NCBI GenBank assembly: GCA_035289645.1
Contig: DATDWL010000004.1
Span: forward strand, 29,614-93,613
Length of the DNA: 64,000 bases
Direction: 5' to 3'
DNA from: Candidatus Peribacterales bacterium
Lineage (GTDB): Bacteria; Patescibacteriota; Gracilibacteria; Peribacterales; Peribacteraceae
How positions within the stretch are numbered: position 1 is the first letter of the stretch; each line of letters begins with the position of its first letter. Made by a program: the position numbers and the translations under genes. Under the pieces are notes generated by a model that worked only from the letters and a program-made list of their open reading frames with translations, was not told the DNA's origin and ran no database searches. Of the stretch, positions 2,206 through 55,676 are shown piece by piece.

Positions 2206-2304
2206 ACGTCATGCCAAGCGAAAGCACGCTTTTCTCGGGCGAGTGAATCCGCCGTGGTGGACGAATCAATCGAGAGACAATGTGCTGAAGCCAAAGCACA
2301 TCGC
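2206..2304 (+). repeat. Degenerate type A arm with a nested degenerate type B arm
   Basis: acgtcatgccaagcg ... aagcacatcgc encloses ttctcgggcgagtgaatccgccgtggtggacgaatcaatcgagagac (about 2232-2278), which resembles 25728-25775. Confidence 0.7.
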
Positions 2305-10387: not shown

Positions 10388-10636
10388 TTATGTATCTGAT
10401 AGCGTAACGAGCTTTTCTTTTTCCGCCTTGCTCCACGTCTTCACCTCCGCCTCCCTGTGACGGGCATCTTTGAGTAATGCGAATTCTTCGTGGTAGATGA
10501 TGGCGATCGGTCTCCGAGAGCGCGTGTACTTGGCACCCTTCCCCTCGTTATGCTTTGCTTCACGGGCTTTAAGATCGATGCAGGATCCAGAGTAGAGCGA
10601 TGTATCGCTGCAGCGGGCAAGATAGAAGTAGGGCAT
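10388..10636 (-). CDS. Small GIY-YIG nuclease (UPF0213/YazA-like)
   Basis: YFYLARCSD.SLYSG...R...HNEGKGAKYTRSRRP...REAEVK. Confidence 0.9.
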   Translation of the reverse strand: MPYFYLARCSDTSLYSGSCIDLKAREAKHNEGKGAKYTRSRRPIAIIYHEEFALLKDARHREAEVKTWSKAEKEKLVTLSDT

Positions 10637-24531: not shown

Positions 24532-25677
24532 CTATACATCAAGGAGCGCCTCCTGCATCCGCTTCATATCGCGCTTGCTCACTTCTGGTTTTGGTGCTGT
24601 TAAATCCTCGATTTCACGATCGCGCTCGTCGATATTGGCAATCAAGCGCTTGAGATCAGATGGCCGAAAGTTTGGGAGCCGCATTTTCTCCTTCTCGCGA
24701 TGTACTTCATCGGAAATCTCCGGATAGAGCTTTTTGGCATCGTAAAGCACCGCAGAGCCGCGCTGCGCCATCAAAACATCGAATGCGTTGCGCTCACTGA
24801 TGTGGTAGTCGAGCGATGCCACAAGATGGATGATCTTCTCGCGCTCTTGCGGATCAAGCTGTTCGGCAAATTCATAGGTTGTAATTTTCTTCAGTGATGC
24901 GAGGATCGGCTCAAGGCTCTCGGGGGAAATCACGTAGAACGTTAGTCCATTCTCGGTGAATGACAGTTTTTTGAGTTCGCTGATCGCATCCGTTGGAACG
25001 ACGAAGAATACGGTCGGATAGATGGAGACGTTCCCCTTGTACTTCTCGGCAGTCTTCTTCACATTCGTCGAAATATAATTTTGGAAGTTATCGGAACGGC
25101 TCACCTTGGCATCGAACACGATGTACTGCTTGAGGAACGCAATCATAAAATCAGGCTTCACGCTGCCATCAAACCCATCGGGAAGATTTTTATTATCAAA
25201 CCATGCGAAAGAGGTTTCCGGCTTTTTACAAAGATCGATGAGTGACGCAAGCACGTTTTGCTCATGATCGTTCCACAGGCGATCACGCTCCTCAAGCATT
25301 TTTTGTAAGCGTTCTTCATCGTCGTGGCGAATGCGCATCTTTTCATCCTCAAAACTCTTCTCCGCGCGATGGAGCTTTTGGAGTTGATCATCATGCTCGC
25401 GGCGGCGACGCTCCTCGGATTCTTCGTAGCGGTGGAGTGCGCTACTTTTCTCATCGCGCTCGCGTTGCAGGGATTTATGCTCTGCCTCCAAATCTTTGAA
25501 TCGAGAAAAGAGCTGCTTGCCATTGCCCGCGAGTTCATCTTTTTCCTTCTTTACCTCCTCGATCTGTGATTGGAGTCTGCCAATCTCGCGATTGACTCCT
25601 CCTTCTGTCGTTTGGGATTGTTTCCAAATGAGGAAAGCAAGTGCTGCAAGAATGAGGGCACTAAAAATATAGGTCAT
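24532..25677 (-). CDS. RmuC-like protein (TM anchor, coiled coil, PD-(D/E)XK-type domain)
   Basis: N-terminal TM, long coiled coil, KPDF......IVFDAK, FFVVPT; start at ATG 25677 after TACACT. Confidence 0.7.
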   Translation of the reverse strand: MTYIFSALILAALAFLIWKQSQTTEGGVNREIGRLQSQIEEVKKEKDELAGNGKQLFSRFKDLEAEHKSLQRERDEKSSALHRYEESEERRRREHDDQLQKLHRAEKSFEDEKMRIRHDDEERLQKMLEERDRLWNDHEQNVLASLIDLCKKPETSFAWFDNKNLPDGFDGSVKPDFMIAFLKQYIVFDAKVSRSDNFQNYISTNVKKTAEKYKGNVSIYPTVFFVVPTDAISELKKLSFTENGLTFYVISPESLEPILASLKKITTYEFAEQLDPQEREKIIHLVASLDYHISERNAFDVLMAQRGSAVLYDAKKLYPEISDEVHREKEKMRLPNFRPSDLKRLIANIDERDREIEDLTAPKPEVSKRDMKRMQEALLDV

Positions 25678-25723
25678 GGCGCGCAGTGTAGCACATGGTG
25701 AACAAATGTCCACCATAAATGAC

Positions 25724-26144
25724 ACTTTTCTCGAGCGAGTGAATCCGCCTTTGGCGGATGAACGAGTCGAGAGACAAACCGATGGTACACTGCATTCCTT
25801 ATGTCCACTGGACCCTATTACCTCTACATCATCGAATGTAGTAATGGAAAATACTACACAGGATCGACATCGAATATAGAAAAGCGATGGAAAGAGCACT
25901 GTGATGGGATGGGATGTACCTACACACGGAAATATCCACCAAAAAAACTTGCCTTTGTAAAAGAATTTCAAAGTATCTTTGAAGCTCGTGACAAGGAGAA
26001 GCAAGTGAAAGACTGGAGTCAGGAGAAAAAAAGGAAACTCATTACTGGAGAATGGGAGTAAATGACAAGTCTCTCGACTGCCCGTCACTTACATACATTA
26101 CCTCCATCGTCGGTCACATGTGATATGGATCGCTCGAGAAAAGT
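25724..26144. mobile_element. Putative mini mobile element: GIY-YIG gene between two inverted type B palindromic arms
   Basis: 15-bp perfect terminal IR acttttctcgagcga (25724-25738) / tcgctcgagaaaagt (26130-26144); 11-bp inner IR agtcgagagac (25765-25775) / gtctctcgact (26069-26079). Mobility is inferred. Confidence 0.7.
25801..26061 (+). CDS. Small GIY-YIG nuclease (UPF0213-like)
   Basis: YLYIIECSNGKYYTGST..IEKR..EH..G.G..YT.KY.P......EF.....A...EKQVK.WS..KK..LI. Confidence 0.92.
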   Translation: MSTGPYYLYIIECSNGKYYTGSTSNIEKRWKEHCDGMGCTYTRKYPPKKLAFVKEFQSIFEARDKEKQVKDWSQEKKRKLITGEWE

Positions 26145-26165
26145 TTTGTGTGGCATCAAATTAAT

Positions 26166-26975
26166 TCATCGCGCAGCCGAAGCATCGCAAATCCGCCGAA
26201 ACGGACATATCCTGCATTTCTCACGACTTGGCGTAGGAGCGTAGTCTTTCGAAGAAATCCGCTCAGTGAGGAGACTGATCGATTTTGCAGCGGTATGAAG
26301 CTCCCCTTCTCCGCGCGTTGTCGTCACTTCGACAAGACCTTCCTCCACAAGAAAGAGCATCGTGAGCTCGCTCACCTTTTTGCCAAACGCTTGCTCCGCT
26401 GCGATCGCATACACGCTGAGTTGCAGATCTTGATCGACCTCGGACTGAGAACGCATACTACCCGTTTTAAAATCGATGATACGGAGAGTGCTATCGGGAA
26501 GCTCTTCGATACGATCAAACCTTCCTGTGATGACATTATTGTCATCATGATCGATTGCCATTTTAAATCCCTTCTCCACCGCTACGACCTTCCTCCCCTC
26601 TCGCTTCCACCACTCAAAGAATTTTACGAGCAGCCTCTCGCCACGCGCACGATCAAAATCCACAGCAACTGTGGAATCGTAGCCGGCGATGACGAAGGAT
26701 TCACGCCACAATTCATGTAAGCGGTGAGCGGAAAGCAGGACGCAGTGAGCAGACTGAACACCGCTCTCTTCAAACAAGGTCGTTTGGCTATTAATCGCTA
26801 ATCGCTCTTCGCTTACCGCTTGTTCAATTTTCCCCCATTTTGAAAGGCACGAATGCATACTCACCCCAAAACATCCCTCCGGCGTTAGCGGAGCTTTGAG
26901 TTTTTTGATGAACTCGTACTCGAACTTACGTGGGCAACTGCGAAACGCAGAGAGCTGGGAATAACTGAAAGGCAT
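26166..26975 (-). CDS. PD-(D/E)XK nuclease (RecB/AddB/Cas4-like, 4 Cys)
   Basis: SYSQL..F..CPRK, GRFDRI, IIDFKTG, QL..YA, CRICPFRRIC. Confidence 0.9.
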   Translation of the reverse strand: MPFSYSQLSAFRSCPRKFEYEFIKKLKAPLTPEGCFGVSMHSCLSKWGKIEQAVSEERLAINSQTTLFEESGVQSAHCVLLSAHRLHELWRESFVIAGYDSTVAVDFDRARGERLLVKFFEWWKREGRKVVAVEKGFKMAIDHDDNNVITGRFDRIEELPDSTLRIIDFKTGSMRSQSEVDQDLQLSVYAIAAEQAFGKKVSELTMLFLVEEGLVEVTTTRGEGELHTAAKSISLLTERISSKDYAPTPSREKCRICPFRRICDASAAR

Positions 26976-27014
26976 GAAGACAGCATACCAAGCCTCACAC
27001 GCAATACGCTGAGA

Positions 27015-33060: not shown

Positions 33061-34589
33061 TATGGCTTTCCTCGAGCGAATGAATCCGAACGGAGTGAGG
33101 ATGAATGAGTCGAGAGGCCTCTCGACTCGTCCGTCGCGACGGACTCGCTCGAGGAAAGCAAAACACCCACCAATCCCCACACTGTATATGCCACAGCCGA
33201 ATCTTCCCACGCATGGAGGAAGAGCGACGCGATGCTGATTCCCAAAAATGCAAGAAAAGCCGGTGAAACATTGATGATGGAAAGCCGTTTGAGAATTATG
33301 AAGCAGAGCGCAAGAAAGAGCGCAAAACCAAGAATCCCAAGTTCGAGACCGATTTGAATGTACCAATTTTCCGGGAGAAGCGGACAATGACACTCTTTTT
33401 GATCAATGGTTGGCTGAACCTGGGTGCGGCCAATAAAAAGACAGAGATCAGACCGATCCTTCGCCCAGCTTGTATCCGCTCCTTCATCAAAGTACAAGCA
33501 TGTATCACTGACTCTATTACTCGCAGGACCAGCAGAACCAAGACCAAACCCGAGTGGATTCTGAATCATGGTCACGATCCCCTCTCGTACGCGCTCGATA
33601 TGATGGCGATTCGAAATACTGCGCTCGATAAGTGATGGCATCGTAGCCATGAGAGTGATAATCGCGAGTATCACAATGGAAAAAAGTGTCATCAATATGT
33701 GCATTCTCCGCTTTCCGTGAATATTCACACTGATCGCAATGACCGTGATCACAAATGCAGCAATCCATGCGGAGCGGGAGAAAGTGAGAAGGAGGGCGAA
33801 TGCGATGAGAAGAAGGAATGGAATGTTTCGTCTTCGGCGCGCTGTGTCATCCTGAGCGAAGCCGGAGCGAAGCGACGGCGAAGACGAAGGGCGGTACAGC
33901 GCGCCTTCGCTCAGCATGACACATAGTCCCACACTCCAAGGTATCAGCAGCCATAATCCAAATTGATTCGGTCCGGAAAACGTGGACTGGATGCGACGAA
34001 TGCCGGTATTCGAGATATGCTGAAATGCGGAAAGGGATGAGCCCGGCGCATAGATGGAATGCGCATCGCTGTAGCCGAGTGTCGTGAAGAATCCCTGCGG
34101 GAGGAAAAATGTAAGAATACCATACGCAGCAACAATTCCTCCGATGATGAATACAGCTGGATACATTCTCTTCTCTAAAAAATCCTGATCCCATGGGAGC
34201 CACGCGAGGAGGAGGAAAAAAATGAGCGGAATAAAATCATACTTAAACCCAAACACAAATTGTGTGAGTGACGATGGCGCGCCATTGATGAAAAGAATAA
34301 TGGCAACAGCGAGCAGACCAAGAATGCACCACGTCGGTGCATCGAGACGAAACTTCCATCGTCCACCCTTGATCATTATGAGAACACTCTTCCAATCTGC
34401 CATCGCAAGCTCAACAATGCCAACGAGAAAAATGAACGCAATAAGCACCTCCTTCCAGATTGCAAGAAGTGGCATCGGCGCATGGCCGTATCCTTCGATC
34501 AACCGAGTTCCCACTGTCACAAAGAGTGCATGGAGCGGGAGGAGGACGAAGAGGATCAGGAGGAAATGATGACGTAGTTTGCGGAGCAC
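33060..34589 (-). CDS. O-antigen ligase (WaaL/Wzy_C) family membrane protein with two palindromic inserts
   Basis: RI.STFSGPN..G, LTFSRSAW, P.G.GLG, ENWY.Q...E.G..G; GTG start 6 nt after TATACT. Confidence 0.85.
   Translation of the reverse strand: MLRKLRHHFLLILFVLLPLHALFVTVGTRLIEGYGHAPMPLLAIWKEVLIAFIFLVGIVELAMADWKSVLIMIKGGRWKFRLDAPTWCILGLLAVAIILFINGAPSSLTQFVFGFKYDFIPLIFFLLLAWLPWDQDFLEKRMYPAVFIIGGIVAAYGILTFFLPQGFFTTLGYSDAHSIYAPGSSLSAFQHISNTGIRRIQSTFSGPNQFGLWLLIPWSVGLCVMLSEGALYRPSSSPSLRSGFAQDDTARRRRNIPFLLLIAFALLLTFSRSAWIAAFVITVIAISVNIHGKRRMHILMTLFSIVILAIITLMATMPSLIERSISNRHHIERVREGIVTMIQNPLGFGLGSAGPASNRVSDTCLYFDEGADTSWAKDRSDLCLFIGRTQVQPTIDQKECHCPLLPENWYIQIGLELGILGFALFLALCFIILKRLSIINVSPAFLAFLGISIASLFLHAWEDSAVAYTVWGLVGVLLSSSESVATDESRGLSTHSSSLRSDSFARGKP
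33065..33159. repeat. Empty type B arm pair (no GIY-YIG), encoding the ligase C-terminus
   Basis: gctttcctcgagcga (33065-33079) / tcgctcgaggaaagc (33145-33159); centre gagtcgagag-gc-ctctcgactc. Confidence 0.9.
33843..33923. repeat. Type A element inside the O-antigen ligase gene
   Basis: tgtgtcatcctgagcgaag / cttcgctcagcatgacaca, one mismatch. Confidence 0.88.
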
Positions 34590-41120: not shown

Positions 41121-41123
41121 CCG

Positions 41124-41229
41124 CTTTTCTCGCCTGCCCGCCGAGGTGGGAGCGAGTGCTGAGCGAGTCCGCCTTTGGCGGACGAGTCGAAGAACGAGTC
41201 GAGAGACGGTGCAATCTCGCTCGAGAAAA
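41124..41229. repeat. Composite type B element with a nested inner arm and an 18-bp micro-element
   Basis: ttttctcg[cctgcccgccgaggtggg]agcgagt gctgagcg...agtcgaag aacgagtcgagagac ... ctcgctcgagaaaa. Confidence 0.85.
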
Positions 41230-41233
41230 ATTA

Positions 41234-41767: not shown

Positions 41768-42223
41768 ATGCAGCTCTCGCACCTTCGTGGCCGCAAGATT
41801 GTTGATCGCGTACGCAGTAAAGGCGCACGTTTTCGCGGAAAACACATGAATATCACATATGTCATGGGAATGCCTCGCACGACAATGGGGAAGAACCTCT
41901 CGACTCACTCATCCTTCGACGGACGCTACGCGTCCGCTCAGGATTCGTTCGCTCCCACCTCGGTGGGCAGGCAAGGAAAGCATTTTTTCGTCGGCACCAC
42001 CGCTTCCACCAAGCTCGATAAATCTGCAGTGAGGAGAAATCGCATGCGTCGACGCTGCCGTGAAGCACTCAGACTTACTGCGAAAGAACGACAAAAATTA
42101 CCTGTATGCCAATTGCTCATCTCGCCGCGTTCCTCTAGCCTAGATTGCGCATTCCAAGAGCTCCAGCGCGATGCGGTGGAATTTCTTACGTCGCTGGAGA
42201 AGACGCATATACACCGTTCGTAA
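41768..42223 (+). CDS. rnpA: Ribonuclease P protein component, with a roughly 28-aa repeat-derived insert
   Basis: VG...STKLDKSAVRRNRMRRRCREA (RNR motif); position between rpmH and yidC. Confidence 0.92.
   Translation: MQLSHLRGRKIVDRVRSKGARFRGKHMNITYVMGMPRTTMGKNLSTHSSFDGRYASAQDSFAPTSVGRQGKHFFVGTTASTKLDKSAVRRNRMRRRCREALRLTAKERQKLPVCQLLISPRSSSLDCAFQELQRDAVEFLTSLEKTHIHRS
41896..41981 (-). repeat. Composite type B arm inside rnpA
   Basis: Reverse complement gctttccttg[cctgcccaccgaggtggg]agcgaacga atcctgagcg...gtcgaaggat gagtgagtcgagagg. Confidence 0.85.
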
Positions 42224-45147: not shown

Positions 45148-46509
45148 CTACACCATCCTTTCTGGATCCAACATTTTCTTAAGTTTCGCTTTGGGAATAG
45201 TCGTTCTCCACGATGCAACCTCCAGAATCGTCTCTCCTTTCGCCATAGCCTCTTTCGCAATCTCCGCTGCTTTTTCGTACCCGATCAGAGGCGTAAGAGC
45301 TGTGACAAGCATTGGGCTCCTCTCCAGGCGATATTTGATACTCACAGAATTCGCTTTGAGCCCATGCATGCATTTTGTTGCAAAAACATGAGTGACATTC
45401 GTGAGAAGCATCATGGTGGTATGGAGCTTGGAAGCAATGACTGGATATCCTGTACAAAGCTCAAATCTGCTTATATACGCAATAGATTGCGTAATCGTAA
45501 CATCGCCCCCCATGATGAACGCAGCGACTTGCTCCACGCTTTCGCAGAGAACAGGGTTTACTTTGCCGGGCATGATGGAGGATCCCGCTTGAAGCTCTGG
45601 AAGGATGAGTTCGGCAATGGCATCCGATCCCATCAGGCGGATATCACTCGCAATCTTTGTGAGGACGATGGCGACTTCGATAAGAGCAGAGCTGAGAGAT
45701 TTGAGTGCGAGAGGACAGGACTGCGCTGCGATATGATCCTCGGCTTCGTCGAGCGGAAGCTGTGTCTCTTTTTTGAGTGCCGCAATGACTCGCTTTGCAA
45801 ACTGGGGATGTGCATTGATCCCTGTGCCAACCGCCGTACCGCCGAGCGGAAGAATGCAGAGCTTTTCTATAGCCTGTGTGAGTGATTCAATCACCTGTAC
45901 AAGGAGTGATGAGTACGATCGGAATTCATCGGAAAGCCGAATGGGGGCTGCATCCATAAGGTGCGTACGACCGACTTTGATGATGGGAGCAAACTCTTTC
46001 TCCTTCCTCGAAAGCTCTTTGATGAGGAGCATAAGCGCAGGAATGAGTTCATCACGAACCTTGAGTGCACTGCTGATCTGCAGAGCGCTTGGAATCACAT
46101 CATTACTCGATTGGCATCGATTTACATGATCGTTGGGGTGAATTTGAGCCGCTTTTCTCGAGCGAGCGAATCCGCCATCAGCGGATGAGCGAGTCGAGAG
46201 ACCTATCGACTGATTGGCAAGCTCTGCAATCACCTCATTCATATTCATATTCGTGCTCGTCCCCGACCCTGTCTGGAAAATATCCACAGGGAATTGATCG
46301 AGGTGGCTCCCTCTTTTGATCGAAGAAGCAGCCTTTGTGATAGCTGCAGCATGACTCTTTGGGATTTCTCCGAGCGCTCCATTCACCATCGCTGCATGCG
46401 CTTTTATAAGCGCAAGCGCCATGAGGAATTGGGGCGGCATCCGCCATCCGGAGATGGGGAAGTTCTTCATTGCAGCCTCCGTATGCTTTCCGTAGGGTTT
46501 TTTTGGCAC
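45148..46509 (-). CDS. fumC: Class II fumarate hydratase (FumC/AspA family), with an in-frame insert
   Basis: QTGSGTSTNMNMNEV, HPNDHVN..QSSND, GRTHLMDA, GSSIMPGKVNP. Confidence 0.88.
   Translation of the reverse strand: MPKKPYGKHTEAAMKNFPISGWRMPPQFLMALALIKAHAAMVNGALGEIPKSHAAAITKAASSIKRGSHLDQFPVDIFQTGSGTSTNMNMNEVIAELANQSIGLSTRSSADGGFARSRKAAQIHPNDHVNRCQSSNDVIPSALQISSALKVRDELIPALMLLIKELSRKEKEFAPIIKVGRTHLMDAAPIRLSDEFRSYSSLLVQVIESLTQAIEKLCILPLGGTAVGTGINAHPQFAKRVIAALKKETQLPLDEAEDHIAAQSCPLALKSLSSALIEVAIVLTKIASDIRLMGSDAIAELILPELQAGSSIMPGKVNPVLCESVEQVAAFIMGGDVTITQSIAYISRFELCTGYPVIASKLHTTMMLLTNVTHVFATKCMHGLKANSVSIKYRLERSPMLVTALTPLIGYEKAAEIAKEAMAKGETILEVASWRTTIPKAKLKKMLDPERMV
46151..46202. repeat. Single type B arm inside fumC
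   Basis: gcttttctcgagcgagcgaatccgccatcagcggatgagcgagtcgagagac, closely similar to 25725-25775. Confidence 0.9.
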
Positions 46510-55067: not shown

Positions 55068-55676
55068 ATGCCGCAATTCAATGCTCACGTCCGGCAAGGA
55101 GCATATCTGCCCCACTGGACGAAGGAGGGGGCAACGTACCATGTGCGATTTCGACTGGCAGATTCGATGCCGCAGCACATCCTGAAGGAATGGCAGGAGG
55201 AAAAGAAGGAACTCCTGCTCAAAAGAGAGCAGAAAAAGGGAGGGCTTACAAAATCAGAGGAGGAGAGACTCCGTGAACTCTCATCCGAAAAAGTTGAGCA
55301 CTATTTGCATCAAGGATATGGCGCCTGTTTTCTCAGGCAGGATCTTGTTGCTAAGATTGTTGCAAATGCTTTACGAAAGAACGATGGAAAACAATACCGT
55401 CTTATCGCATGGTGCATCATGCCAAATCATGTGCATGTTATTCTCACTCCACTGACTCAGGAACTCCATCGAATTGTGAACACATGGAAAAGTGCATCCG
55501 CACGGAAATCAAACAGATTTCTCAAACGAGCAGGAGCATTTTGGCAAACTGAATACTTCGATCATTTGATCAGAAATGAGGAGAACTTCCATCATGCAAT
55601 CGAATACGTCTGGAATAATCCTACCGAAGCTGGCTTAAAAGAATGGAAATGGCGATGGAAAGCAGAAGAGTATTGA
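55068..55676 (+). CDS. REP-associated tyrosine transposase (RAYT)-like HUH Y1 transposase
   Basis: LPHW...GATY.V.FRLADS, WCIMPNHVH (HUH), FWQ.EYFDH.IR, Y..NNP. Confidence 0.9.
   Translation: MPQFNAHVRQGAYLPHWTKEGATYHVRFRLADSMPQHILKEWQEEKKELLLKREQKKGGLTKSEEERLRELSSEKVEHYLHQGYGACFLRQDLVAKIVANALRKNDGKQYRLIAWCIMPNHVHVILTPLTQELHRIVNTWKSASARKSNRFLKRAGAFWQTEYFDHLIRNEENFHHAIEYVWNNPTEAGLKEWKWRWKAEEY

What the first reader, a model, noticed from the sequence alone, without database searches (positions are those of the whole stretch)
25724..26144. GIY-YIG nuclease gene bracketed by the genome's dispersed palindromic repeat: candidate autonomous element of a REP-like system
Seen: a 421-bp cassette between two unrelated minus-strand genes. 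It consists of a left arm, a TACACT -10 box (25786), an 86-aa GIY-YIG ORF and an inverted right arm. It has a 15-bp perfect terminal IR and an 11-bp inner IR, with no obvious target-site duplication. The same arms occur without the gene at about 2232, 33065, 41124, 41896 and 46151. Established: GTAG-type REPs flank HUH RAYT genes, and UPF0213 GIY-YIG proteins resemble structure-specific nucleases such as Slx1 but are not classed as transposases. Inference: the gene-between-inverted-arms layout parallels RAYT/REP, so this nuclease may recognise the folded arms and spread the repeat family.
Basis: partly seen in the sequence, partly recalled or inferred. Interest (0 to 1): 0.9.

Follow-up and report, generated by a model that had tools for sequence, protein, structure and literature searches.

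The report
Small nuclease gene inside mobile hairpin repeats
A tiny GIY-YIG nuclease gene sits between two copies of the genome's own dispersed hairpin repeat and has moved together with them as one unit, an arrangement already published in 2025 for the related Ssn nucleases but seen here with a different protein branch and different hairpins.

Summary
An 86-aa GIY-YIG ORF (25801-26061) lies between two units of a dispersed repeat, with a 15-nt perfect outer IR and an 11-nt inner IR.

Two further paralogues in this genome have the same layout. One uses the same "AB" hairpin family; one uses the genome's commonest "PQ" family.

A same-genus genome has an empty site here: the two neighbour genes are 44 nt apart. 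The PQ cassette sits at different, reciprocally empty sites in the two genomes. So arms plus gene moved as one unit.

AB units occur 22 and 25 times in these two genomes, and once in 39 other relatives. They occur again in a Doudnabacteria and an Omnitrophota genome that carry the same protein type.

The idea is not new. Chenal et al. 2025 (PMC11893778) showed that single-domain GIY-YIG "Ssn" nucleases are flanked by their hairpin repeats, bind them as ssDNA and cut beside them. They noted the likeness to IS elements and RAYT/REP.

This case differs from theirs. The protein is closest to UPF0213 structures, and the hairpins do not fit the published motif. Whether the nuclease spreads the repeats is untested.

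The parts
25716..26165 (+). Segment present in this genome and absent at the orthologous site of the same-genus genome G001 (the whole insertion)
   Evidence: in G001 the orthologues of the two neighbours (76% and 53% aa identity) are 44 nt apart. Homology stops after ...TCCACCA (25715) and resumes at the stop codon of the PD-(D/E)XK gene (26166); a related contig in one public run also diverges right after 25715.
25724..25775 (+). Left arm: one 'AB' hairpin unit. It has a pyrimidine box CTTTTC, an outer stem TCTCGA/TCGAGA, a GCGAG/CGAGT module that can form tandem G.A pairs, and an upper stem ATCCGCC/GGCGGAT
   Evidence: DNA fold -12.1 kcal/mol, z=-3.0; same unit type 22 times in the genome.
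25783..25791 (+). Extended -10 promoter element TGGTACACT, ending 9 nt before the ATG (short-leader or leaderless mRNA inferred)
   Evidence: TGNTANNNT ending 3-15 nt upstream of the start in 7 of 37 small GIY-YIG loci against 13 of 1850 random positions. It is present at all three arm-bracketed cassettes of this genome and at L010 and L012.
25801..26061 (+). 86-aa single-domain GIY-YIG nuclease gene (UPF0213-like)
   Evidence: PF01541 E=3.3e-19. Y9, Y19, G21, R29, H33 and E66 are invariant in 20 aligned relatives. Closest solved structures: UPF0213 BH0048 1zg2 E=4.2e-14 and EF2693 1ywl E=5.9e-8; Slx1 E=1.7e-6 by profile.
26069..26144 (+). Right arm: unit in inverted orientation. Its ends (GTCTCTCGACT ... 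TCGCTCGAGAAAAGT) match the family; its 50-nt interior is unrelated to the left arm
   Evidence: IRs; no significant fold on either strand. By eye, similar long-interior units lie at G000 C7:327174, C7:329324, C11:23656, C11:23760 and C11:33523.
25716..25724 (+). First copy of the 9-nt direct repeat TAAATGACA, directly before the left arm (unexplained)
   Evidence: family D2 (19 nt at 84% identity; the first 9 nt are identical). It lies inside the inserted segment by the G001 comparison.
26059..26067 (+). Second copy of TAAATGACA, overlapping the stop codon and lying directly before the right arm
   Evidence: family D2.
33066..33158 (.). Gene-less AB doublet: two units head to head, the same layout as the cassette without the gene
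   Evidence: DNA fold -33.5 kcal/mol, z=-6.6.
2229..2278 (+). Gene-less single AB unit
46152..46202 (+). Gene-less single AB unit
41123..41230 (+). Composite gene-less unit of the same family
41896..41981 (-). Composite unit lying in frame inside the rnpA-like ORF; absent from the G001 orthologue

Best explanation
This is an Ssn-like nuclease/hairpin cassette. It holds a single-domain GIY-YIG nuclease gene with its own extended -10 promoter, enclosed by two units of a dispersed hairpin-repeat family. The whole block (arms plus gene, about 450 nt) is a mobile or recently mobile insertion. Gene-less doublets and single units of the same family are its non-autonomous relatives. Shown here: the layout; its recurrence with two repeat families; presence/absence of the complete cassettes between congeneric genomes; and co-occurrence of hairpin type with protein type in three separate lineages. 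Inferred from the published biochemistry of the related Ssn family: the nuclease binds the purine-rich strand of the hairpin when it is single-stranded (during replication, repair or DNA uptake) and cuts next to it. Inferred without direct support: these cuts, repaired or resolved by host replication and recombination functions, are what copy the units, doublets and cassettes to new sites. A GIY-YIG enzyme hydrolyses DNA and forms no covalent intermediate, so it cannot paste DNA by itself.
For: (1) Recurrence. Of 8 small GIY-YIG ORFs in the genome, three are tightly bracketed. The C4 copy (this one) has a 15-nt IR. The C7:207370-207621 copy (62% aa identity) has AB-type arms and a 15-nt perfect IR. 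The C2:3050-3298 copy has a 20-nt perfect IR of the PQ family.
(2) Scan not centred on the gene. Among 28 neighbouring '+ then -' unit pairs, 24 are 97 nt or less apart (gene-less doublets). The only same-family pairs with a larger gap under 4 kb (293 and 359 nt) each enclose exactly one GIY-YIG gene.
(3) Mobility as a unit. The site is empty in G001 for this cassette. G001 carries a PQ-armed cassette (protein 76% identical over 110 aa by tblastx) between genes that are adjacent in G000 contig C17. The G000 C2 site is cassette-free in G001, with a gap of 120 nt against 696 nt. None of the three empty sites holds a doublet, so the arms travelled with the gene.
(4) Specific pairing. The AB-unit pattern gives 22 hits in G000, 25 in G001 and 1 in the 39 other relatives; the reversed-pattern control gives 0, 0 and 1. 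Proteins at least 60% identical to this one occur only in G000 (2) and G001 (1) among those 41 genomes. The same pattern gives 26 and 11 hits in a Doudnabacteria and an Omnitrophota genome. Their 53%- and 49%-identical proteins (same DWSQ.KK.KLISG.W C-terminus, read by eye) lie among AB units.
(5) Wider association. Flanking IR score >=13 at 9 of 27 cross-phylum loci against 0 of 200 shifted control windows. IR score >=12 at 3 of 28 loci in relatives against 0 of 148. The arms of two of those cassettes are dispersed in their own genomes.
(6) Structure. Upper stems differ between copies but stay fully complementary, while the TCGAGCGAG...CGAGTCGAGA frame is constant (sequences listed).
(7) Published precedent. 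SsnA and three homologues bind and cut their flanking hairpin repeat only as ssDNA and only on one strand. 42% of homologues are flanked on both sides (PMC11893778; Results part 1 and section 10 read).
Against: No experiment or read-level evidence shows excision, insertion or cleavage for this element. Contigs of 4 public runs show no form that skips the cassette.
The right arm here is not a hairpin.
Bracketing is far from universal: 25 of 28 loci in relatives and 18 of 27 cross-phylum loci lack a strong flanking IR. Five of the 8 paralogues in this genome lack such arms, two of them cut by contig ends. In several loci the flanking elements are direct, not inverted, copies (L010, L054, L055, L058).
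The published SRM search sequence finds 2 sites in this genome against 3-14 in 10 shuffles, and none near a GIY-YIG gene.
Membership of the protein in the Ssn clade (cd10448) could not be tested.
G000 and G001 are one genus, so their agreement counts as one event.
RAYT-like Y1 genes exist in this genome (2) and in all 5 other repeat-bearing genomes tested, so another enzyme could move the hairpins.
No target-site duplication or clean junction rule was found.
Confidence: 0.62

Rival explanations
1. The nuclease is a host-serving (domesticated) ssDNA nuclease, as proposed for Neisseria SsnA. It would restrict or modulate incoming or replicating single-stranded DNA at the repeats. The flanking units would serve only as its recognition or autoregulatory sites. 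The repeats themselves would be spread by something else, such as the RAYT-like Y1 proteins or replication and recombination errors at palindromes.
For: SsnA modulates natural transformation and is not shown to move DNA (PMC11893778, abstract and section 12). Two RAYT-like genes are in this genome, one of them in the window at 55068-55676 (NCBIfam REP_Tyr_transpos E=4e-18 on a 79-aa part). Y1 genes are present in all 5 other repeat-bearing genomes tested. A hydrolytic GIY-YIG enzyme cannot join DNA.
Against: The RAYT-like genes are not flanked by AB/PQ units or by any dispersed repeat. Their orthologue distribution does not follow the repeats. One has orthologues in G001 (with an internal TGA), G010 and G015. 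The other sits in roughly 1000-aa frames in 5 relatives and was not found in G001. AB units, by contrast, are confined to G000 and G001. The gene moves together with its arms into sites that had no repeat, which a purely host-serving gene need not do.
Confidence: 0.25
2. The GIY-YIG gene is a homing-type selfish gene. It would cut a pre-existing gene-less doublet and be copied into its centre by repair, so the arms would be just the two halves of its target.
For: The gene sits exactly where the spacer of gene-less doublets lies. GIY-YIG homing endonucleases are a known class. There is a weak match to TIGR01453 (28.2 bits, cut-off 56).
Against: All three orthologous empty sites are short plain spacers without a doublet. 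The protein has no DNA-binding domain beyond the 86-aa catalytic domain. Arms of the paralogous cassettes differ in sequence, so there is no shared homology for repair-mediated copying.
Confidence: 0.08
3. Chance or generic function: the hairpins are ordinary terminators or insulators that happen to flank a small gene.
For: The units are common in intergenic DNA. The right arm is followed by a T-rich stretch.
Against: Three independent cassettes use two repeat families. There were 0 of 200 and 0 of 148 control windows with comparable IRs. AB units co-occur with this protein type in all three lineages where they were found. Many units lie in frame inside coding genes, where a terminator makes no sense.
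Confidence: 0.03

Closest known systems
Ssn nucleases with NTS/SRM hairpin repeats (Chenal et al., Nat Commun 2025, PMC11893778)
   Same: A single-domain GIY-YIG protein of about 90 aa. The gene is flanked on both sides by a hairpin repeat that is dispersed in tens to hundreds of copies in the same genome. Each repeat has an orientation-giving box 5' of the stem. Protein and repeat co-vary between lineages. The authors themselves point out the IS-like NTS-ssnA-NTS layout and the RAYT/REP analogy.
   Different: This protein is closest to the UPF0213 structures (E=4e-14). A relative with NTS-like CGTCAT arms (L029) matches them only at E=4e-4 to 6.5e-3. The AB hairpin has no CGTCAT box, and the published SRM search sequence does not find AB or PQ units. 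Several paralogues, each with its own repeat family, coexist in one 1.17-Mb genome. Many units lie in frame inside genes (the paper gives 2% of NTS inside genes in N. meningitidis). Presence/absence evidence for movement of whole cassettes is given here; I did not see such evidence in the sections I read (supplements closed).
RAYT / REPIN systems
   Same: A nuclease-type gene lies between inverted copies of a palindromic repeat. The commonest dispersed form is a doublet of two inverted units. The repeat family is specific to the gene family.
   Different: The enzyme fold and chemistry differ: a hydrolytic GIY-YIG, not an HUH tyrosine transposase with a covalent intermediate. The gene is multi-copy and sits at different loci in congeners, whereas RAYTs are described as single-copy and vertically inherited (abstracts listed). 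The genome's own RAYT-like genes are not flanked by these repeats.
Rickettsia palindromic elements (RPE)
   Same: Palindromic repeats inserted in frame into protein-coding genes.
   Different: As far as I recall, RPEs were described without an associated nuclease gene. PMC11893778 lists Rickettsia among genomes with more than 300 SRM elements, so the two may be related.
IS200/IS605 'peel and paste' elements
   Same: Subterminal hairpins are recognised as ssDNA; there is no target duplication; there are no long terminal IRs of the DDE type.
   Different: There is no Y1 transposase in the cassette, and no defined target tetranucleotide was found.
UPF0213 proteins (BH0048 1zg2, EF2693 1ywl) and Slx1
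   Same: The same catalytic domain and size; best sequence matches among solved structures.
   Different: No repeat association is attached to those entries in what I saw. Slx1 has an extra domain and a partner (Slx4) and acts on branched DNA (recalled).

Membership tests
Ssn / SRM system (PMC11893778) | Single-domain GIY-YIG protein of about 90-100 aa | tested here: met
   86 aa; PF01541 covers residues 6-77.
Ssn / SRM system (PMC11893778) | Intact GIY-YIG catalytic residues | tested here: met
   Y9, Y19, R29, H33 and E66 are invariant in a 20-sequence alignment. Their roles are assigned from recalled knowledge of the superfamily.
Ssn / SRM system (PMC11893778) | Protein belongs to the clade nearly synonymous with CDD cd10448 | not testable with these tools
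   No CDD was available. NCBIfam and the Atlas give only generic GIY-YIG labels. Indirectly, the best solved relatives are named UPF0213, which hints at a neighbouring clade.
Ssn / SRM system (PMC11893778) | Gene flanked 5' and 3' by a hairpin repeat that is dispersed in the same genome | tested here: met
Ssn / SRM system (PMC11893778) | Repeats fit the published degenerate SRM search sequence | tested here: not met
   2 matches in the genome against 3-14 in 10 mononucleotide shuffles; none within 300 nt of any of the 8 GIY-YIG genes.
Ssn / SRM system (PMC11893778) | Strand-specific binding and cleavage of the repeat as ssDNA, not as dsDNA or RNA | not testable with these tools
   Needs purified protein. 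The asymmetry of the unit (purine-rich G.A module on one strand only) is compatible with it.
RAYT / REPIN | HUH Y1 tyrosine transposase | tested here: not met
   The cassette gene is GIY-YIG. The Y1 genes of the genome lie elsewhere and are not flanked by these repeats.
RAYT / REPIN | Gene flanked by its repeat; inverted doublets are the dispersed form | tested here: met
Autonomous element with MITE-like derivatives | Terminal inverted repeats shared by gene-carrying and gene-less forms | tested here: met
   15-nt IR here; the same termini on gene-less doublets.
Autonomous element with MITE-like derivatives | Empty orthologous sites in relatives | tested here: met
   Three sites.
Autonomous element with MITE-like derivatives | Target-site duplication | tested here: not met
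   No duplication of 3 nt or more at the one cleanly aligned junction. The other two junctions are too diverged to read.
Autonomous element with MITE-like derivatives | Encoded protein catalyses the movement | not testable with these tools
   Inference only.
Free-standing GIY-YIG homing endonuclease (I-TevI / Seg type) | Catalytic domain joined to a DNA-binding domain; family model score | tested here: not met
   86 aa only; TIGR01453 28.2 bits against a cut-off of 56.05, matching profile positions 5-40 of 215.
UPF0213 | Sequence similarity to BH0048 / EF2693 | tested here: met
   E=4.2e-14 and 5.9e-8.

The most novel reading that the evidence does not exclude
UPF0213-type GIY-YIG cassettes are active autonomous mobile elements of a mechanistically new kind. 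A hydrolytic, hairpin-guided ssDNA nuclease would drive the copying of its own cassette and of gene-less hairpin doublets. It would do so across phyla (this small-genome lineage, Doudnabacteria, Omnitrophota, Bacteroidota) and into coding genes, where the doublets persist as in-frame inserts in RecG-, PriA-, UvrD-, UvrA-like and rnpA-like proteins.
Probability: 0.3. Interest if true: 0.85.

Novelty: new variant of a known kind. Interest (0 to 1): 0.55.

Why it matters
The 2025 Ssn paper established that small GIY-YIG nucleases cut their flanking hairpin repeats as ssDNA. It left two questions open: what they do outside Neisseria, and whether the NTS-ssnA-NTS unit is or was mobile.

This locus and its relatives give comparative evidence that such cassettes move as units: there are three reciprocal empty sites between two congeneric genomes. 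They also show that the principle extends to a UPF0213-like branch with hairpins that the published motif does not detect. Motif-based surveys therefore undercount these systems.

In a 1.17-Mb genome the repeats have invaded DNA-repair and replication genes in frame. That bears on how reduced genomes tolerate selfish DNA.

Each new protein/hairpin pair is also a candidate sequence-specific ssDNA nuclease for tool development, the use proposed in the paper.

Tried and rejected
Rfam: no family near its threshold on 25000-27000; the best was Gut-1 at 17.2 bits against a gathering score of 50.

A second call returned only a format error and was not pursued.

Literature: searches found nothing linking small bacterial GIY-YIG genes to dispersed repeats. 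One search found PMC11893778. One passing mention of GIY-YIG gene transfer from Patescibacteria appears in PMC12455944 (one passage seen).

Expression: no RNA holder was listed for the stretch.

Population variants: contigs of 4 runs showed no joint skipping the cassette. These are contigs, so rare forms would be lost.

Reverse empty-site test for the G001 AB cassette (L010): inconclusive, because the neighbouring gene differs in length and context in G000.

Site 33066: G001 carries a different AT-rich palindrome at the same position, so no empty site can be read there.

Classification: NCBIfam, Pfam and the Atlas gave no Ssn-specific label.

Published SRM search sequence: no enrichment in this genome.

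The count of units inside long open frames (33 of 84) is only an upper bound. It includes false positives such as the left arm of this cassette, which lies in a spurious 518-aa frame. Only the cases read individually are used.

The similarity among the long interiors of 'right-arm-type' units was judged by eye only.

Not run: structure prediction, complex prediction, a covariance model, a family tree, and a strand-bias test against replication direction (contigs too fragmented).

Full report
**What is there.** The window is contig C4:29614-93613 of a 1.17-Mb, 19-contig, 50% GC genome.

There is a 15-nt perfect outer inverted repeat and an 11-nt perfect inner one.
- Between them lies an 86-aa ORF (25801-26061) that matches Pfam GIY-YIG at E=3.3e-19.
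- TACACT at 25786 is part of an extended -10 element, TGGTACACT, ending 9 nt before the ATG.
- Both neighbours are on the minus strand. One is a 381-aa ORF with no Pfam match. The other is a PD-(D/E)XK nuclease (PDDEXK_1, E=1e-32).
- The left arm folds as a hairpin (z=-3.0). The 76-nt right arm shares only its two ends with the left arm and does not fold above chance.

**The arms are members of dispersed families.**

- Two arm motifs give 111 genome hits against 10-17 in shuffles.
- K-mer counting shows two main families. 'AB' has CTTTTCTCGAGCGA ... GAGTCGAGAGAC. The more abundant 'PQ' has ACGTCATGCTGAGCG ... GAAGTCGAAGCAC, with 53-70 copies of its terminus.
- With strict motifs I count 84 units: 30 AB and 54 PQ.
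- The commonest composite form is a head-to-head doublet. There are 16 'P+ Q+ Q- P-' clusters and 3 strict 'A+ B+ B- A-' clusters, plus variants.
- The AB unit has a constant frame, TCGAGCGAG ... CGAGTCGAGA, around an upper stem. That stem differs from copy to copy but stays complementary (the 47 sequences listed).
- On one strand the frame can form two G.A pairs between C-G pairs; on the other strand it cannot. The unit therefore has a functional strand.

**The gene-between-arms layout recurs.** The genome has 8 small GIY-YIG ORFs plus one GIY-YIG match in an 824-aa frame.

- The closest paralogue (C7:207370-207621, 62% identical) has an AB-type hairpin, TGGTAGAAT, the ATG, a stop, and an inverted AB-type hairpin. 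Its outer IR is a 15-nt perfect repeat.
- A third paralogue (C2:3050-3298) is enclosed by PQ arms with a 20-nt perfect outer IR and has TGTTACCAT before its start.
- In a scan not centred on the genes, 28 neighbouring '+ then -' unit pairs were found. Twenty-four are 97 nt or less apart. The two same-family pairs with larger gaps (293 and 359 nt) each enclose one GIY-YIG gene. One mixed-family pair (1512 nt) encloses ordinary genes, and one pair is 29 kb apart.
- The C7 cassette was missed by that strict scan and was found by the IR scan.
- With looser criteria, two other family pairs appear, with gaps of 793 nt and about 1000 nt. They overlap housekeeping genes (rpmH/rnpA and a nucleotidyltransferase) because units lie in frame inside those genes.
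- The other five paralogues have no such arms. Two of them are cut by contig ends, one lies in a tRNA-Val region, and one has only an upstream hairpin.

**The cassettes move as units.**

- In the same-genus genome G001, the orthologues of the two neighbours (76% and 53% identical) are 44 nt apart with nothing between them. The segment present only here is 25716-26165. A related contig in one public run diverges at the same left boundary.
- G001 has its own PQ-armed cassette (protein 76% identical over 110 aa by tblastx to the G000 C2 copy) between two genes that are adjacent in G000 contig C17.
- The G000 C2 site is cassette-free in G001, with 120 nt against 696 nt between the same flanking genes.
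- None of the three empty sites holds a gene-less doublet. This argues against simple homing into an existing doublet.
- No target-site duplication is visible at the one clean junction.

**Gene-less units are also polymorphic.**

- One lies in frame in the rnpA-like gene of G000 but not in that of G001.
- One lies in frame in the PD-(D/E)XK gene of G001 but not in that of G000.
- Doublets sit in frame inside RecG-, PriA-, UvrD- and UvrA-like ORFs of G000. These names come from my reading of motifs in the translations and were not tested.

**Specific pairing of protein and hairpin.**

- The AB-unit pattern occurs 22 times in G000 and 25 times in G001. It occurs once in the 39 other relatives searched; the reversed-pattern control gave 0, 0 and 1.
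- Proteins at least 60% identical to this one occur only in G000 and G001 among those genomes. This counts as one genus and therefore one event.
- Independent replicates come from a scan of species-representative genomes. A Doudnabacteria genome (protein 53% identical) has 26 pattern hits, including nested ones. An Omnitrophota genome (protein 49% identical) has 11. In both, the gene lies among AB units.
- Three other genomes have 43-52% identical proteins of a different C-terminal type and give no hits.
- More widely, strong flanking IRs are found at 9 of 27 cross-phylum loci against 0 of 200 shifted windows. They are found at 3 of 28 loci in relatives against 0 of 148.
- The arms of two of those cassettes are dispersed in their own genomes.
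- In some loci the flanking palindromic elements are direct copies, so inverted bracketing is not a rule.

**A rival enzyme.**

- The genome has two RAYT-like Y1 genes, one of them in the window at 55068-55676.
- They are not flanked by AB/PQ units or by any dispersed repeat.
- The distribution of their orthologues does not follow the repeats.
- However, Y1 genes are present in every repeat-bearing genome I tested, so they cannot be excluded as helpers.

**Comparison with what is known.**

- Six literature searches found nothing; the seventh found Chenal et al. 2025 (PMC11893778). I read Results part 1 and sections 10, 12 and 17; the supplements were closed.
- They show that a 94-aa single-domain GIY-YIG protein of Neisseria (SsnA, CDD cd10448) binds a hairpin repeat (NTS) only as ssDNA and only on one strand, and cuts upstream of it.
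- They report that 71% of homologues have such repeats nearby and 42% have them on both sides. Three further homologues cut their own repeat.
- They state that the NTS-ssnA-NTS layout looks like an insertion sequence. They compare it with RAYT/REP and propose a domesticated element.
Its recognition half is experimentally established for a related family. Its spreading half remains a hypothesis there and here.

**What differs here.**

- The protein matches the UPF0213 structures 1zg2 and 1ywl at E=4e-14 and 6e-8. A relative with NTS-like CGTCAT arms matches them only at E=4e-4 to 6.5e-3.
- The published SRM search sequence finds 2 sites in this genome against 3-14 in shuffles.
- Several protein/hairpin pairs coexist in one small genome.
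- Units are frequent inside genes.
- Whole-cassette presence/absence polymorphisms are documented.
- I could not test membership in cd10448.

**Verdict.** The case is best filed as a new variant of the Ssn-type nuclease/hairpin-repeat system, with useful comparative evidence for mobility.

Noticed in passing
window 55068-55676 (+): RAYT-like Y1 (HUH) gene (PF01797; NCBIfam REP_Tyr_transpos E=4e-18 on a 79-aa part). It is not flanked by any dispersed repeat. Orthologues occur in G001 (with an internal TGA), G010 and G015.
   Followed up: partly
window 10415-10636 (-): A second small GIY-YIG gene in the window, of another subfamily (MPYFYLARCSD...), without recognisable arms. Relatives of this subfamily often follow a tRNA-Glu gene (L014, L016).
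   Followed up: partly
window 41896-41981: A repeat unit of about 87 nt lies in frame inside the rnpA-like ORF and is absent from the G001 orthologue. With the unit at 41123-41230 it brackets rpmH and the start of rnpA.
   Followed up: yes
G000 C7:275690-275827, C7:127212-127369, C7:233516-233646, C9:27508-27635: Hairpin doublets lie in frame in the middle of long ORFs that look like RecG, PriA, a UvrD-type helicase and UvrA (names from reading the translations, not tested). Another unit lies in the 824-aa frame holding the genome's ninth GIY-YIG match (UvrC-like by my reading). PQ doublets translate as ...HAERSE...SAQHD...
   Followed up: partly
L040 about 1870-1953 (G001 C58): A PQ-type palindromic element is inserted in frame in the G001 orthologue of the PD-(D/E)XK neighbour gene; it is absent in this window's copy.
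   Followed up: yes
window 25716-25724 and 26059-26067: A 9-nt direct repeat, TAAATGACA, precedes both arms. The second copy overlaps the stop codon. Both copies lie inside the inserted segment. Its meaning is unknown; it could mark two equivalent cut sites 343 nt apart.
   Followed up: partly
window 33066-33158 and L078 (G001 C29 about 1322-1431): Where this genome has an AB doublet, G001 has an unrelated AT-rich palindrome of similar length at the same intergenic position.
   Followed up: partly
G000 C18:13445-13890: A 119-aa ORF resembling, from memory, the four-helix-bundle '23S rRNA intervening sequence' proteins is bracketed by 13-14-nt inverted repeats of another kind (GTAGCGCAGTAGG...).
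   Followed up: no
L015 (G011 C1) and L004 (G000 C2:65367-68579): Some small GIY-YIG genes sit directly after a tRNA gene and are followed by a duplicate of the tRNA 3' end (21 nt in L015). In L004 the gene lies between a tRNA-Val and a tRNA-like copy that carries hairpin inserts.
   Followed up: no
L006 and L008 (G000 C17:34-246, C18:34-246): Two near-identical GIY-YIG copies lie at contig ends and share an in-frame TAG where relatives have a residue. They may be pseudogenes, and repeats may have broken the assembly here.
   Followed up: no
L092 (G000 C7:222373-223038) and relatives G004, G005, G015, G018, G022: The second Y1-like ORF lies directly upstream of a leucyl-tRNA-synthetase-like gene. 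In five relatives the homologous Y1-like part lies in open frames of about 1000 aa, as if fused.
   Followed up: no
G000 genome-wide: Other frequent words, GGTATTAGGTATT (18 copies) and TATACTATTCAATTGAA (about 15 copies), point to further repeat families.
   Followed up: no
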